A DNA stretch of 64,000 bases, from positions 37,820,001-37,884,000 of the forward strand of contig OZ336885.1 of the NCBI GenBank assembly GCA_965287045.1. The letters are read 5' to 3'. Positions 12,001 through 60,000 of the stretch are shown here, piece by piece. Numbering within the stretch: position 1 is the first letter of the stretch; the number at the start of each line of letters is the position of its first letter. The position numbers were made by a program. The DNA is from Carcharhinus amblyrhynchos (lineage: Eukaryota).

Positions 12001-15000
12001 CTATAGGCAAAGCTTTTTAATAAAGGATATAATTACAACAATTTACAAAATTTACTACACCTTAATTTCCATCTGTCGAAGCGCTCTTTCAGTTACTGGT
12101 TAAGTGTGACCGTGCCTAACTAAAATGTGTAAAACTATTCTGAGAAACAAAATAAAATATCAGATAGGCATGAGAAGAAGCTATCGTATCAGCAGCTGCT
12201 ATATGCTGGCGATGAAAGTCTTGTCTATGTAGTAAATGGTGCTCACACTTACAGATTAAATCAATTGATAAATGTATGGTGAGATTAAAATGAGGCCCTT
12301 AGTTATCTGATTCTAATAGAATAAGAACAGACTTTAGATAACTCTTACTGTCTTCCCCCATGTGATAATCCCTATGACTTCCATGGGTGATCTTTAACTG
12401 ATCGCCCTGTGGAGCTTGTTGAATAAGAGTTCCCTTGATAATAGACAATGGCCTGATCAAGTGGAACTGGGCAGCTACCGGGAAGGGCCTGTAGAACTAT
12501 TGTCCCAGTTGGGACTTGTGTGAGAATTGTTGTACCAGTTGGGAGTCAAGTATCCTAGAAGGCAAAATCCCAGAAGGCGTAACCCAAAAAGGTGACAGAT
12601 AGCAACTTACAATGGACTCCATTTTCATTGGGAGTTTGTTTCTTGCTGTACAAGGAAGGCATATTTGTGTTGACATTTAATATTATATCATTGTGAAATT
12701 ATAATGTATTGTAATTTATAATGGATAAATTTGGATAAATTGTAATGTATTTGGATGAATTGTTTAAATTAAAAGAAAGCTGGGACTTGTGTACGTGTTG
12801 AACAATGAATACCATTCCTTTTCAGTAGGGCTTTCTGAGATATTACACCCTCCCTCGTCCATACACACCAAGAGAAAGATGCACTTAATCTCACTGGCTG
12901 GACAGGTCAACATTATAGCTTTTGGAGGGAAGGATGCTAAACGCAGCATTAGATTCGAAAATGAAGATAGGAAGACCAAGAGTTGTATGGGGCGGGGGTG
13001 CAGTAGCAGACGAAACAATAGCAAGGAGAAAGGAAAGAAACAAGATAATCAAATGTGGAAGCGTAAACCTGACTCATTTTGATGAGGAAAGTGAATTCGT
13101 TCACAAAGCACATCATACATCCCGAAGTCAAATAATAACAAGTTTAAACAAATGCAGTGGCAAGCCTCTCGGCAGTGAGATAAGTGGCCAGTTCGTCTGT
13201 TCTGGAGGTGCTGCTGAAAGGAGAAATAACCCCAACTCCGGCACAGCATCACCACTCCTCCAGAAAACGTGCCCTGGGATCTTCTTTGTCCGGCTCAACA
13301 GCTGGATGAGGCTCTTCTTTCATTTATCATCAACGCCAGCCTAGATCCTGGTCAAATCCTGCTACAGAGTTCATCCCACAATGTCTGCCTCACATCTGAG
13401 ATTATAGGGCGGAGATGTGCCGGGCGGGACATTATCCTATTTTGATATCCCGATTGAAAAATAAACGCACGCGTTTGAATTGGATTTGCACCCTGGCTGA
13501 TCACAGCTCACCCTCCCGAATATTTCCAGAATGCTGGCATCCGCGCAAACCATTCACTGAGACATAGTCAGAGGAATTGCCTGAGAGCGAATGGGGCCGC
13601 AGAAAGAAATGAAAGGGAATGTTACTGAATATGAGCGGACCATTTGGGTGTAAATTTTAGGGTTCGTGGAAAAGAAATCAGTGACTGGATGTGAGATCTG
13701 TCAGTACCCCAAATGTTCAAGTTGGCTCCAGATTTTAAAATAAGAAAATGCAACAATTTGTAAAAGTCTGTTCTTTCATCCTGATTTTGTTTGCAGATGT
13801 GTTATTCCTCAATCAGGTTTTCACTGCAGCTCTTGCCCTAACGATGTGGGATTGGCCCAGGATGAATTGGGGCTGCAATGTGCAGTGTTGTTGAGTTGTG
13901 CTTTGCGGCTCGTCATTACCTGATTCCTAGAATCTGCTCTGACTCTCCACGTGTTTGCGACAGAACAAACTAAACCATGGGCTTGTCAGCCACACCAACC
14001 AGGTACCTCTTCTGATTGGCCAGGGGCTGGGATCAACACAAGCCTCTGTATCTATATATATTCGGTAAGAAACCAGTATACACAGAGGGGGCTGAGAACT
14101 TGTTGAGATTTTTTTTCCAAAATGCGGGTGCAGAGCAAGAACGGCAGCCGGCTCCTGCAGTTTCTGAGACAAGGGGACAAGTTGCGACACCGCACTCCGC
14201 TTTCGACAGCTGGCAGTGTGGCAGACAAAGCCATGGCTCCGTGTGGCCACAGCTCCATCCCAGGTCCCACCAGCTGGCCCGTGCTAGGCAGCCTGCTGGA
14301 GATCATCCGGAGAGGAGGGCTCCAAAAACAGCACAAAACACTGGTAAATCCAAGGCTGGGACCAAAACAAGTCTAGCTTCATCCATAGCTCAATTTGCAA
14401 TAAGAATCTGTGTGATTTGCCATTTCAGAAAATAATGCAGCAAAATCCCTAGCTCATCTGACCTAAAGTATTTTTTATTTGCCATTTCAGAAAATAATGC
14501 AGTAAAATTCCTAGCTCAATTATCCGAAGCTTTTTTTTCTTTTTATATATAACTACAGGAACGATGGGGACCCAAACTCTGGGCACCAAGTGGTCATCCA
14601 GATGTGTCCCCCTCCTCCCCCCGTCGTTATCTTTAAGCGTATGTTCTTCTTTCACAGGTCGAATTTCACAAGAAATTTGGGAAGATTTTTAAGATGAAAT
14701 TGGGGCCATTTGAAACCGTACACATCGGGGCTCCGTGCCTGCTCGAAGCTCTTTACCGTAAAGAGAGCAATTACCCGCAGCGTCTGGAGATTAAACCGTG
14801 GAAAGCTTACCGGGACTACAGAGACGAGGCGTATGGACTGCTCATACTGTGAGTACCAAAGGCAAAGCCCATGTCAGCTGTGCCGATAGCAATAACCCGT
14901 GGAAATATTCACATACGAATGATAGTCCGATTCCTCCCGTGCAGTGCATTTCATTGAGAAATTGCACATGGCAGAATTTTGGAATTGTTACAAACTTGCT

Positions 15001-57000: not shown

Positions 57001-60000
57001 CCTCTCACAGTTGTGCGATTTAGTGAATTGGCCATGCTAAATTGCCCCTTAGTGTTCAAAGATGTGTGTGTTAGGTGAATTAGCCGTGATAAATGTGCGG
57101 GGTCACAGGGATGGGGCAGAGGAAAAAGAGCAGTACCACATGTGCAACGGTTAATTTTGTAGACAGTATTGGACTTGCAGTATTGGACTTGCAGTATTGG
57201 GATGCGCCCCCCCCCACCCCCCAAACCACCCCCCCCCACCCCCCACCCCACCCCCACAGTGATCTAACAGCCTATTAATTATCATTGTGATTGTTGGGCA
57301 ATTGGTTCAGTAGCCAGAAGGGATCAGTAGCTGTGAAACTGTAGCTCAGCTAGACTTTAATGTATTAAGTATACGCTGATAGGTAGTTAAGGCAAAATCA
57401 TTTAAAAGTAATTAATTTGTAGCATCTAACGTGACCAGTGATATTTCAACATCACCTATTGTGTATCCAGAAAAAAACAAGTGAAGGCATATTCGTTAAT
57501 CATAATACAAAAAGATTTTAAGGATAAATTAGAGAAAACTTTTGAATACCCATGATACTTTTTTTTACTAATATTAGAAAACAGAGCAAAATAAATCCTA
57601 AAATGCCATACAAAACTTCACAATACTATAATGTATTTTGAGTGCACGTTTGAAACTAATGGGACAGTTTGAAATGATCAGACAGAACTGAGGTGAAGGA
57701 ATGTTAAGTGTGGGTATGTGAATCAGAATGCCTTTCCTGATTGCCACATTCCAAAAAGGCTAAGTTTGGATAATGAAATCTGTAGAGAAACAAAGCTCAA
57801 GACGGAGAAAGCGACTGTCAGCTTTATTCTGGGGAGCGGCGAACTGAAAAGAGATGATGTGTGAGGCAAAAATGGATTTCCAAATAACGAGGTGAACTCA
57901 ATGAACTCTACGAACTCATACACTTCAAAAGTTGTTTCTCTATATTCTGTAAGGATACAGAGAGAACCTGCATATCCTAAGGGCAAGGGATTTTAATTTT
58001 AAAATTATTACTCTTCATTCTTGGTTTATTTGATAGTAAATTGTTTAGCAAATTTACCAAACACAATTAGGGGAGAGTAGAAAGAGCATTGACAATTATA
58101 TGTTCTATTTAGAGTTTAGAAGGAAAATAGGTAGGCCAAAATAATTAATAACCATAAGTAAAAAGCTCAGAAAAAGTGTTTAATGGAGGGATGAAGAATG
58201 AGCAAGCAAATCTTGACGTGTTTGTTGAAGGCACAAAAAGGATCAATTTGGAACATAACATCCTGAGTTTCAGTGATATCTGAAAACATTTGACCCAAAA
58301 TTGAAGCTGGCCATTTTTAAGGCATTTGCAAACTGCCTAAGACTTGCATATCCGAATGAGAGGCCTTATGGTGCAATGGGTAGCCTCTCTATTTCTGAGC
58401 CAGGCACTCCAGCATTGAGTTCCACTTGATGGCTAAGGGAGGTGTGTTCATAATGCAGCTAAAACAGGTCAAGTGTCCATCTGCAAATCCTTCCAGTTGC
58501 AGGCGGTAAGAGCCGGGGTGGCTCCTGGTCAGCCATGCCTGATGTGGAGTGCTGCCCTCAAGCTATAATCCTCTGGAGGCAGACTAGTGACCTGTTCCAG
58601 GAACAACTAGCTGTGGAAACAAACAAAAGTCTGTCTTAGTGCGCTGCTAGGCAATTTATGTAAATGAATGGCCTCATAATTGTCTGAGAACCTTTACAGG
58701 AAATCAAGTTGTCCTTTTGAATGTGGCCTAGTCAATGGCTGCATTGTAAAGATAAGTGACGTTCTTTTATTTCTTTAGAGCTAATAGGAAAAAGTGTACA
58801 CATAACTACTCTATGGTTTTTACGGGTGGATTTTACAGCCTCACTTGTCCTAAAATTGTAAACTCCCACCCAAGGTCAATGGACCTTCCCATTGTCTGCC
58901 CCTCACCTGCAATTCCCATGATGGGCAGGACGGTAAAATTCTGGCATATGTCTTCAAAACATGTAGTCTACATCAATGAGATGCAGGCAATAACTAAGTG
59001 ATCTTTAATGAATGAGTCTGCTTAATCAATCACTAAATTTCTTTTCTACCAACAAGAAAAGGGGGAGGATGTCATTCTCCAGATGACTCCACATTCCCCA
59101 CACCACCTCTGAGGCGGCAACAGAAGATTCCTCAGAGGAAGAAGATATTGTGTTCACCAGTATCCTCTACCATTGCAGATGCACACACCTCAGAGGGACC
59201 TCATTCAAGGATAGACTTGGAGTTACAGTCTGGTGATTAATCCACAGACACAGTCCTACAGCTGGTGGAGGCAGTGACAGCCAAGATCTGTGACACTCAG
59301 AGGACTGTTGGAGACCAGGCTCCTGCTGAGACTGAGTCCAATGATGAGCCCCTGAACTCGGCTCTACCTAACAGACGTCTTAGAGACGTAGAGACAGGTA
59401 GGGGAACATCAGCCAGAGTTATCAAAGGCTGTTCGCAAACTTGACTGAAAGATGGAGAAGTCCATCTGCATACTCAGTGCAGTTGTGGCTCTGGCATACA
59501 AGTGCCTTGAAATCTCTATAGGAAGGGTGGTAGCGGCCTCAGAGACCCAGGTCCAGCAGTTTCTGCAGGATTTGCCCACTATCATTCTAACCTTAAGTGC
59601 GTTTCAGCAGTGGCTAGGCAAGAAGGGGATCTCGACCTCCCTCCAGATGCACCTTTTCTGCGTGGAGTGAGGGAGAGGCCACTGACACCCGAAAAGAGGA
59701 GCTCACCATACAGACACCCGGGGGTTTCATCCCGGGGTACTTCAGGTGTGTCCTGGTGCTCTGCAGTGATCCCATCACTTCCAGCTGGTCAGGCCATGGA
59801 GAGTCCACCTGTACCTGAGCAGGAAACATTCAGCAGGCTGGAACCCTCAAAACCTCAGGCCACTGGAGGATGCCTGCCAAAGTCATCTCAGACAGCACAG
59901 CATAACAGTCAACAAGTTGCCTCCACCTCTGCTGGGGATGTCAGGGCTGCAGCCAGACATAGCAGAAGGGTTAGATAGGTTAAAAAGTATTGGATGCACA

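What the first reader, a model, noticed from the sequence alone, without database searches (positions are those of the whole stretch)
14012..57930. Multi-layer vitamin-D catabolic feedback module readable in a cartilaginous fish
One locus combines an intact CYP24A1, distal VDREs (transcriptional induction), a miR-125 site (post-transcriptional damping) and Gly326-type regiochemistry. If confirmed, the VDR-to-CYP24A1 negative-feedback loop was in place before the split from bony vertebrates, and its output may be lactones rather than calcitroic acid. I cannot check whether this has already been published.
Basis: inference. Interest (0 to 1): 0.68.

Follow-up and report, generated by a model that had tools for sequence, protein, structure and literature searches.

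The report
Ordinary shark CYP24A1 gene locus
The window holds an intact shark copy of the vitamin-D-degrading enzyme gene CYP24A1, but the proposed regulatory sites around it are short motifs no commoner than chance, and the "special" glycine is shared by all fishes and amphibians examined.

Summary
An intact CYP24A1 gene lies on the + strand at 14122-30005. It has 11 coding exons, 10 GT-AG introns and 502 codons. Its best matches are shark CYP24A1 proteins of 502 aa, so the cartilaginous-fish origin is confirmed. The residue aligned to Ala326 of rat CYP24A1 is Gly. That is the ancestral state, not a peculiarity. It is Gly in 78 of 80 named fish and amphibian proteins, with no motif read in the other 2. 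It is Ala in 31 of 32 amniotes.

The "distal VDREs" are two identical perfect DR3 motifs at 52869 and 57893, about +39 and +44 kb from the promoter. They sit in a duplicated unit of about 0.4 kb. DR3 counts in the window are at chance level, and no good DR3 lies in the proximal promoter.

One miR-125 seed match on the sense strand (34471) lies 75-85 nt before poly(A) signals. Whether it is in the mRNA is unknown, and its frequency is at chance level.

The gene is real and ordinary: orthologues are already annotated in nine chondrichthyan records. The feedback module and the lactone output remain untested inference. I could not test cross-species conservation.

The parts
14012..14021 (+). Inverted CCAAT box (CTGATTGGCC) of the putative core promoter. 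It coincides with the finding's start coordinate.
   Evidence: Read directly from the sequence. Function is inferred.
14053..14062 (+). TATA-like run about 60 nt upstream of the ATG. The transcription start is inferred at about 14085-14095.
   Evidence: Read directly. CpG observed/expected rises to 0.52-0.85 over 12.5-17 kb.
14122..14343 (+). CYP24A1 exon 1 (ATG at 14122; 74 codons; basic N-terminus; phase 0 end)
   Evidence: tblastn gives 94.7% identity to M. asterias residues 1-76.
14658..14848 (+). Exon 2
   Evidence: Pfam p450 at 27.4 bits, profile positions 28-88. tblastn 96.9%.
15241..15334 (+). Exon 3
   Evidence: tblastn 100% to S. canicula residues 139-170. Splice sites.
16326..16422 (+). 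Exon 4
18123..18214 (+). Exon 5
19056..19167 (+). Exon 6
25328..25473 (+). Exon 7, I-helix (ELQIGGVET). The codon at 25459-25461 is the Gly aligned to Ala326.
   Evidence: Match to rat CYP24A1 3k9v, chain positions 254-298, E 3.2e-10. Chain numbering is offset by 32.
26877..27043 (+). Exon 8 (J/K helices; the ExxR motif begins here and its Arg is a codon split with exon 9)
   Evidence: Pfam p450 at 58.7 bits. 3k9v positions 299-353, E 4.4e-17.
28328..28406 (+). Exon 9
   Evidence: tblastn 96.4%. Pfam p450 only 11.7 bits, below the cut-off.
29587..29784 (+). Exon 10, heme-binding loop [10 protein letters not shown] (Cys codon 29734-29736)
   Evidence: Pfam p450 at 74.7 bits. 3k9v positions 381-446, E 2.6e-26.
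29895..30005 (+). Exon 11 with stop TAA at 30003-30005. One base later comes a consensus splice donor (GTATGT from 30007).
   Evidence: 3k9v positions 448-481. Use of the donor is inferred.
34142..34585 (+). Candidate terminal 3'UTR segment. It follows a strong acceptor (pyrimidine tract then CAG, ending at 34141) and ends at poly(A) signals ATTAAA 34550, AATAAA 34560 and ATTAAA 34570.
   Evidence: There is no transcript evidence; the boundaries are inferred.
34471..34477 (+). miR-125 seed complement CTCAGGG (7mer-m8 type, followed by T, not A)
   Evidence: CUCAGGG is given as the core of the miR-125b recognition element in PMC5471063.
52609..53024 (.). Copy A of a duplicated unit of about 0.4 kb. 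Its best-kept core is 52794-52886.
52869..52883 (-). DR3-A, AGTTCAttgAGTTCA, about +38.8 kb from the inferred transcription start
57660..58035 (.). Copy B of the duplicated unit. Its core is 57815-57910.
57893..57916 (-). DR3-B, the same 15-mer at 57893-57907, plus a third half-site (AGTTCG) spaced by 3 nt. About +43.8 kb.

Best explanation
This is the orthologous, intact CYP24A1 gene of a shark, probably a carcharhiniform.

Shown: it encodes a 502-residue mitochondrial-type cytochrome P450 with the heme-thiolate loop, the I-helix acid-alcohol pair and the ExxR motif. It matches annotated shark CYP24A1 over its full length.

Inferred from the family: with adrenodoxin and its reductase it hydroxylates the side chain of 25(OH)D3 and 1,25(OH)2D3 and so inactivates the hormone.

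Inferred by parsimony: transcription is probably raised by liganded VDR-RXR, as in zebrafish and mammals. If canonical elements mediate this, the only good candidates in the window are the two perfect DR3 motifs at about +39 and +44 kb, not the proximal promoter.

The miR-125 seed match is most likely a chance 7-mer.

Gly at position 326 is the ancestral anamniote state. It may tilt the enzyme towards C23 hydroxylation, but nothing here shows that.
For: Gene:
- 11 exons, 1509 nt, 10 of 10 introns GT-AG.
- Pfam p450 above the curated cut-off in 3 of 11 exon translations, those long and conserved enough to score.
- Rat CYP24A1 (3k9v) is the best solved match for all 4 exons sent.
- 12 of 12 hits are named CYP24A1.
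- Full-length exon-wise cover by shark references.

Gly326:
- The window reads IGGVET where rat reads LAAVET.
- The numbering offset of 32 is fixed two ways. The chain ends at 482, matching 514, and the heme Cys sits at chain position 430.
- Koala reads LGAVET, as expected of a marsupial.
- Distribution: Gly in 78 of 80 anamniote proteins (2 unread), Ala in 31 of 32 amniotes.

DR3:
- Two exact matches inside a duplicated unit whose best-kept part ends in the DR3.
- The mouse 1,25(OH)2D3-responsive DS2 enhancers lie at +35 to +46 kb (PMC11487884, passages).
- Skate VDR-RXR binds DR3 probes, including TGAACTtgcTGACCC, and transactivates 24.6-fold (PMC4391915, passages).
- Zebrafish cyp24a1 induction needs VDRa (PMC3446910, passages).
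Against: - No expression, binding or metabolite data exist for this locus.
- DR3 counts are at chance level.
- The two exact DR3 are one duplication event. An 18-nt perfect run inside a 97-nt, 81% alignment is not unusual by my own estimate (about 0.3 expected).
- The unit could be a low-copy repeat fragment.
- The match in distance to mouse DS2 may be coincidence.
- The proximal promoter lacks DR3 elements, unlike mammals.
- Regioselectivity is not set by residue 326 alone. Human and rat both have Ala326 but differ, 4:1 against 25:1 (PMC8584323).
- I recall, unchecked, that teleosts carry circulating 24,25(OH)2D3 despite Gly326.
Confidence: 0.7

Rival explanations
1. Both DR3 units are VDR-RXR enhancers, the 34471 site is a working miR-125 target, and the Gly326 enzyme makes 26,23-lactones rather than calcitroic acid. 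That would be a complete three-layer feedback module, already present before the split from bony vertebrates.
For: The motifs exist. The DR3 positions resemble mouse DS2. The seed lies 75-85 nt before poly(A) signals. Within the AT-rich 444-nt candidate terminal exon it is rare (P = 0.004), but I drew that segment after seeing the site. A326G switches human and rat enzymes to the C23 type. Human CYP24 is reported to be a miR-125b target; I saw this only as cited in reviews.
Against: Each layer is a single short motif at chance frequency. There is no transcript evidence that 34471 is in the mRNA. No conservation test was possible. Gly326 is universal in anamniotes, so it carries no specific signal. 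All three layers being true together is less likely than any one.
Confidence: 0.08
2. The DR3 motifs are chance or repeat-derived sequence with no role in CYP24A1 control. Any VDR induction works through non-canonical or more distant elements not recognisable here.
For: DR3 density is at expectation. Both copies derive from one unit of about 0.4 kb at 62-63% identity overall. 13.9% of the window is intra-window repeat, and reverse-transcriptase remnants lie nearby at 48056-48526. Mammalian VDR sites are often imperfect, so perfect motifs are neither needed nor sufficient (PMC11487884 discussion).
Against: The unit has only 2 copies in 64 kb, both in the same orientation and 5 kb apart. I found no terminal inverted repeats. 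The core that carries the DR3 is much better kept (81%) than the rest of the unit. A perfect AGTTCA DR3 is a strong-consensus element.
Confidence: 0.45
3. The DR3 units are real nuclear-receptor elements but serve another RXR partner (for example a PXR-like NR1I receptor) or another gene beyond the window.
For: DR3 elements of the TGAACT type are shared by VDR and xenobiotic receptors. The CYP3A4 XREM DR3 was used as a VDR probe. A paper on PXR retention and loss in Chondrichthyes exists; I saw only its listing (PMC6539745).
Against: No other gene was detected from 30 to 64 kb. Of the 105 ORFs of at least 85 aa scanned across the whole window, only a reverse-transcriptase fragment hit in that stretch, and there is no CpG-rich segment there. 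CYP24A1 is the nearest promoter.
Confidence: 0.1

Closest known systems
Annotated CYP24A1 of other cartilaginous fishes (Mustelus asterias, Scyliorhinus canicula, S. torazame, Heptranchias perlo, rays, Callorhinchus milii)
   Same: Same length (502 aa in 6 of the 9 records), same exon-wise cover and the same I-helix IGGVET. Per-exon identity to M. asterias is 91-98% for the exons that align cleanly.
   Different: It is not identical to any of them, so it comes from another species. Exon 1 is 94.7% identical to M. asterias.
Mouse and human CYP24A1 locus (two promoter-proximal VDREs plus the DS1 and DS2 downstream enhancers)
   Same: Gene of about 16 kb. Candidate DR3 elements at +39 and +44 kb, inside the +35 to +46 kb range of mouse DS2. 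CCAAT/TATA-type promoter.
   Different: No DR3 pair at -150 and -250. No binding or deletion data. Sequence homology of the distal elements to the mammalian ones was not tested.
Zebrafish cyp24a1
   Same: Gly at position 326 (P0068 is among the 48 of 48 teleosts). An anamniote orthologue.
   Different: Induction by 1,25(OH)2D3 through VDRa has been shown experimentally in zebrafish. Nothing has been shown for sharks.
Opossum and guinea-pig Gly326 CYP24A1, and the human and rat A326G mutants (C23-hydroxylase, lactone pathway)
   Same: Gly at the aligned position.
   Different: The neighbouring residue 327 is also Gly here, where mammals have Ala. Residues 416 and 500 are Met and Ile here; that these two positions tune the C23:C24 ratio I know only by recall (Hamamoto 2006, title seen). 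The activity of any Gly326 fish enzyme is unknown to me.
Human CYP24 miR-125b recognition element
   Same: Same seed core, CUCAGGG, on the sense strand downstream of the stop codon.
   Different: The position in the human 3'UTR was not available to me. The shark 3'UTR is undefined, no pairing beyond the seed was examined, and there is no functional test.

Membership tests
Cytochrome P450 (PF00067) | Match to the P450 profile | tested here: met
   Tested exon by exon. e2 scores 27.4 bits, e8 58.7 and e10 74.7, against a cut-off of 22.8. e9 scores 11.7, below the cut-off. The other 7 short exons have no p450 match.
Cytochrome P450 (PF00067) | Heme-thiolate loop FxxGxRxCxG and the ExxR motif | tested here: met
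   [10 protein letters not shown] is in exon 10 and aligns to the rat loop. E-S-M is at the end of exon 8, with Arg from the codon split between exons 8 and 9.
CYP24A1 orthologue group | Best and full-length similarity to CYP24A1 rather than other mitochondrial P450s | tested here: met
   12 of 12 hits are named CYP24A1. The next solved family, CYP11A1, scores 45.6 bits against 94.3 for exon 10. Residues 1-502 are covered exon by exon.
CYP24A1 orthologue group | Side-chain hydroxylase activity on vitamin D metabolites | not testable with these tools
   Needs a recombinant enzyme and LC-MS.
Gly326-type (C23-hydroxylase) CYP24A1 | Gly at the residue aligned to Ala326 | tested here: met
   It is shared by 78 of 80 anamniote proteins, with 2 unread.
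Gly326-type (C23-hydroxylase) CYP24A1 | Predominant C23 hydroxylation and lactone product | not testable with these tools
   Known only for opossum, guinea pig and the A326G mutants.
DR3-type vitamin D response element | Two RGKTSA hexamers as a direct repeat spaced by 3 nt | tested here: met
   52869-52883 and 57893-907, exact.
DR3-type vitamin D response element | Occurrence above chance or clustering at the locus | tested here: not met
   2 against 0.96 expected (24 of 100 shuffles reach 2). 22 against 20.3 with at most 1 mismatch. 195 in the window with at most 2 mismatches, with no excess in the 52-60 kb bins.
DR3-type vitamin D response element | VDR-RXR binding and hormone-dependent enhancer activity | not testable with these tools
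   EMSA, ChIP or reporter assays are needed.
Mammalian-type CYP24A1 promoter | Pair of proximal VDREs at about -150 and -250 | tested here: not met
   No DR3 with at most 1 mismatch in 13000-14121. One with 2 mismatches at 13986-14000, against 2.2 expected.
miR-125 target site | Seed complement on the sense strand | tested here: met
   34471-34477.
miR-125 target site | Located in the mature 3'UTR | tested here: inconclusive
   Poly(A) signals lie 75-85 nt downstream and a plausible acceptor at 34141. Earlier signals at 30690 and 31590 could end the mRNA first. No transcript data.
miR-125 target site | Conservation across species | not tested

The most novel reading that the evidence does not exclude
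The two DR3-bearing cores at +39 and +44 kb are the shark counterpart of the mammalian DS2 VDR enhancer cluster. Distal DR3 enhancers would then be the ancestral way to induce CYP24A1, with the proximal VDRE pair a later addition. The ancestral jawed-vertebrate enzyme would be a Gly326 C23-hydroxylase making lactones, with Ala326 and calcitroic-acid output an amniote innovation.
Probability: 0.1. Interest if true: 0.6.

Novelty: new member of a known kind. Interest (0 to 1): 0.27.

Why it matters
If shark CYP24A1 were shown to be hormone-inducible through the distal DR3 units, the vitamin-D catabolic feedback loop would date to before the split of cartilaginous and bony vertebrates. It would also suggest that downstream enhancers, not promoter VDREs, are its oldest control layer.

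The by-product seen here could guide a simple enzymological test of when the calcitroic-acid pathway arose: Gly326 in every readable anamniote protein sampled, and Ala326 in 31 of 32 amniote proteins.

As it stands, the window adds one more orthologue to a gene already annotated in many cartilaginous fishes.

Tried and rejected
- Rfam at gathering thresholds over the whole window gave 0 matches, so there is no miRNA or other RNA gene here.
- Pfam on 105 of the 112 stop-to-stop ORFs of at least 85 aa. I left out the 7 that overlap CYP24A1 exons. Only RVT_1 (48056-48526, minus strand) and Myb_DNA-bind_5 (9425-9688, plus strand) hit, so no second gene was detected.
- Proximal VDRE search found nothing usable.
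- The seed-like site at 31011 was rejected because it is on the minus strand.
- TCAGGGA on the + strand occurs at 29952, inside coding exon 11, and at 35186, beyond the poly(A) signals. Neither was taken as a UTR site.
- Inverted repeats around the DR3 units are only weak and unrelated pairs, so there is no transposon-end signature.
- No kilobase-scale collinearity between the two DR3 regions beyond the unit of about 0.4 kb.
- The paper by Prosser et al. 2007 is not held. Its content is taken from reviews.
- Two searches for CYP24A1 in sharks or other cartilaginous fishes found no paper on the subject. In one search, none of the 25 listed papers holds the word CYP24A1. In one search, 71 papers matched; none of the 20 listed has a title or abstract on the subject, and in the two I opened, 'shark' is an author name in one and refers to vitamin D in shark liver oil in the other.

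
Full report
**Scope and limits**

The window has no N. I do not take it for human: its coding matches are best to sharks. The exon total is a sum of lengths.

No collection of vertebrate genomes was available. Conservation of the non-coding elements across species therefore stayed unchecked. Supplementary files were not consulted. The sequences of the mouse downstream VDREs (Meyer et al. 2010, not read) may be in text or supplements I did not see.

**The gene**

Stop-to-stop ORFs on the + strand contain eleven CYP24A1-like segments. With canonical splice sites the exons are:

| Exon | Coordinates |
|---|---|
| 1 | 14122-14343 |
| 2 | 14658-14848 |
| 3 | 15241-15334 |
| 4 | 16326-16422 |
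| 5 | 18123-18214 |
| 6 | 19056-19167 |
| 7 | 25328-25473 |
| 8 | 26877-27043 |
| 9 | 28328-28406 |
| 10 | 29587-29784 |
| 11 | 29895-30005 |

- The lengths sum to 1509 nt, which is 502 codons plus TAA, and 10 of 10 introns are GT-AG.
- Pfam p450 is above its cut-off for 3 of the 11 exon translations (e2, e8, e10) and below it for e9. The seven other short exons give no p450 match.
- Rat CYP24A1 (3k9v) is the best solved match for all four exons sent: e7, e8, e10 and e11.
- A search with exon 7 found 12 proteins among 14 candidates. All 12 are named 1,25-dihydroxyvitamin D(3) 24-hydroxylase. The top three are sharks at 98%.
- tblastn of three of these against the window gives 11 HSPs each, covering residues 1-502 (1-507 for the chimaera). 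Exon 1 is 94.7% identical to Mustelus asterias and 73.7% to Scyliorhinus canicula.

So this is the intact CYP24A1 orthologue of a shark nearer to Mustelus than to Scyliorhinus. I looked no further into the source.

**Promoter**

- An inverted CCAAT box lies at 14012-14021. This is exactly the finding's start.
- A TATA-like run lies at 14053-14062, and the ATG at 14122.
- CpG observed/expected is 0.52-0.85 from 12.5 to 17 kb.
- No DR3 with at most 1 mismatch lies in 13000-14121.
- Only one with 2 mismatches lies in 13400-14121 (13986-14000, minus strand), against 2.2 expected from the window's density.
- The mammalian pair of proximal VDREs, at -156/-171 and -267/-282 in mouse (PMC11487884, passages), has no visible counterpart.

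**Residue 326**

Exon 7 reads ELQIGGVET where the rat chain reads ELQLAAVET, at chain positions 290-298. The chain numbering is offset by 32:

- The heme Cys aligns to chain position 430.
- The last residues of exon 11 align to 481-482 of a 482-residue chain. Mammalian CYP24A1 is 514 aa in the listing.

Ala326 is therefore the first Ala of the pair, and the window has Gly there (codon 25459-25461).

To see how special this is, I searched with coelacanth CYP24A1 residues 255-420 (120 of 271 hits were listed). I read the motif in all 112 named proteins held. The 10 unnamed ones were left out.

| Group | Residue at 326 |
|---|---|
| Chondrichthyes | Gly 9 of 9 |
| Lobe-finned fishes | Gly 2 of 2 |
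| Non-teleost ray-finned fishes | Gly 4 of 4 |
| Teleosts | Gly 48 of 48 |
| Amphibians | Gly 15 of 17 (2 not read by the pattern) |
| Non-avian reptiles | Ala 11 of 11 |
| Birds | Ala 8 of 8 |
| Mammals | Ala 12 of 13 (the exception is koala, Gly) |

The koala fits the reported Gly326 of opossum (PMC8584323, passages). These are cluster representatives and include isoforms and close relatives, so they are not independent counts.

Gly326 is thus the ancestral state and Ala326 an amniote novelty. The A326G effect is known for human and rat enzymes. Human and rat both have Ala326 yet differ, 4:1 against 25:1, in the C24:C23 ratio, so other residues matter. A lactone output for the shark is a possibility, not a reading of the sequence.

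**Distal DR3 motifs**

- The pattern RGKTSA-N3-RGKTSA has two exact matches, both AGTTCAttgAGTTCA on the minus strand, at 52869-52883 and 57893-57907. That compares with 0.96 expected, and 24 of 100 shuffles have at least 2.
- With at most 1 mismatch there are 22 against 20.3 expected. With at most 2 mismatches there are 195 in the window, with no excess in the 52-60 kb bins.
- The two are not independent. Each closes a block of 93-96 nt (52794-52886 and 57815-57910) that is 81% identical.
- That block lies inside a unit of about 0.4 kb that is 62-63% identical (52609-53024 and 57660-58035).
- Copy B has a third half-site 3 nt further on.
- The unit has only these two copies in the window. It has no inverted terminal repeats and no collinear similarity beyond it.
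- Measured from an inferred start near 14090, the motifs lie at about +38.8 and +43.8 kb. That is within the +35 to +46 kb range of the mouse DS2 enhancers, which bind VDR and respond to 1,25(OH)2D3 in all tissues.
- Skate VDR with RXR binds DR3 probes and transactivates 24.6-fold (PMC4391915, passages).

These points make the units reasonable candidates. The statistics do not set them apart from chance or from an old repeat.

**miR-125**

CTCAGGG occurs 5 times on both strands, against 9.96 expected.

| Position | Strand | Context |
|---|---|---|
| 27382 | + | Intron 8 |
| 34471 | + | Downstream of the stop; see below |
| 63230 | + | Far downstream |
| 31011 | - | Reads in the sense of the miRNA on the mRNA, so not a target |
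| 63304 | - | Far downstream |

- The 34471 site is 75-85 nt upstream of ATTAAA 34550 and AATAAA 34560, which looks like an mRNA end.
- The stop codon is followed after one base by a consensus donor (GTATGT), and a strong acceptor ends at 34141. A short spliced 3'UTR (34142 to about 34585) is therefore possible. I recall, unchecked, that mammalian CYP24A1 has 12 exons, which would fit a non-coding last exon.
- P(at least one CTCAGGG) is 0.36 for a contiguous 30006-34585 UTR. It is 0.004 for the 444-nt segment, but I defined that segment after seeing the site.
- Earlier poly(A) signals at 30690 and 31590 could end the message before the site.
- CUCAGGG as the core of the miR-125b element, and human CYP24 as a reported target, come from reviews (PMC5471063 and PMC8797897, passages). 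The original paper was not seen.

**Surroundings**

- No other gene was detected. Of 105 ORFs scanned, only a reverse-transcriptase fragment and a Myb/SANT-like ORF hit Pfam.
- Rfam gave nothing.
- 13.9% of the window is repeated within itself.

**Literature**

- Two searches for CYP24A1 in sharks or cartilaginous fishes found no paper on the subject.
- Zebrafish cyp24a1 is induced by 1,25(OH)2D3 and 25(OH)D3, and the induction needs VDRa (PMC3446910 and PMC5338633, passages).

The loop is therefore established in a teleost and in mammals. By parsimony it is likely older, but it is untested in cartilaginous fishes as far as these searches show.

**Verdict**

The gene, the lineage and Gly326 are confirmed. 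The regulatory layers are candidate motifs at chance frequency. The lactone idea rests on a residue shared by all anamniotes examined. This is an ordinary orthologue with two modest leads: the duplicated DR3 cores, and the Gly-to-Ala change at the base of amniotes.

Noticed in passing
window 30003-30012 and 34110-34150: The stop codon is followed after one base by a consensus splice donor, and a strong acceptor lies 4.1 kb downstream. This suggests a 3'UTR intron and a short non-coding last exon.
   Followed up: partly
window 25459-25464: Across 112 named CYP24A1 proteins, position 326 is Gly in every readable anamniote and Ala in 31 of 32 amniotes (koala has Gly). Position 327 also varies: Gly in nearly all fishes and sauropsids, Ala in the lungfish, most amphibians and mammals.
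   Followed up: partly
window 21443-21455: An inverted repeat of nuclear-receptor half-sites spaced by 1 nt (AGGTCAcTGAACT) lies in intron 6. I recall this as the FXR-type arrangement.
   Followed up: no
window 500-2000: A GC-rich stretch at the window's start (GC 0.51-0.53, CpG observed/expected 0.50-0.55). It might be another promoter. No ORF there hit Pfam.
   Followed up: no
window 9425-9688 (+): An ORF with a Myb/SANT-like DNA-binding domain (PF13873, E 1e-6) about 4.5 kb upstream of CYP24A1. It may be transposon-derived.
   Followed up: no
window 48056-48526 (-), 17154-17797, 38103-38832, 47126-47830: A reverse-transcriptase fragment (RVT_1, E 4.3e-11), and three further stretches (17154-17797, 38103-38832, 47126-47830) that each recur within the window, up to 4 copies. 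The stop-to-stop ORFs inside the first two read alike.
   Followed up: no
window 1606-1825, 7144-7440, 25849-26181, 35264-35445, 37420-37660, 56854-57093: A short interspersed repeat family with up to 7 copies in the window. One fragment (30104-30281) lies just after the stop codon.
   Followed up: no
window 29785-29894: Intron 10 is only 110 nt, while intron 6 is 6160 nt.
   Followed up: no
window 52820-52865 and 57845-57890: Just upstream of the DR3 (on the + strand), both copies keep a block of about 21 nt (GCAAAAATG.ATTTCCAAATA). Copy A has TGATGCAAA just before it, which I recall as resembling a C/EBP-ATF composite site.
   Followed up: no
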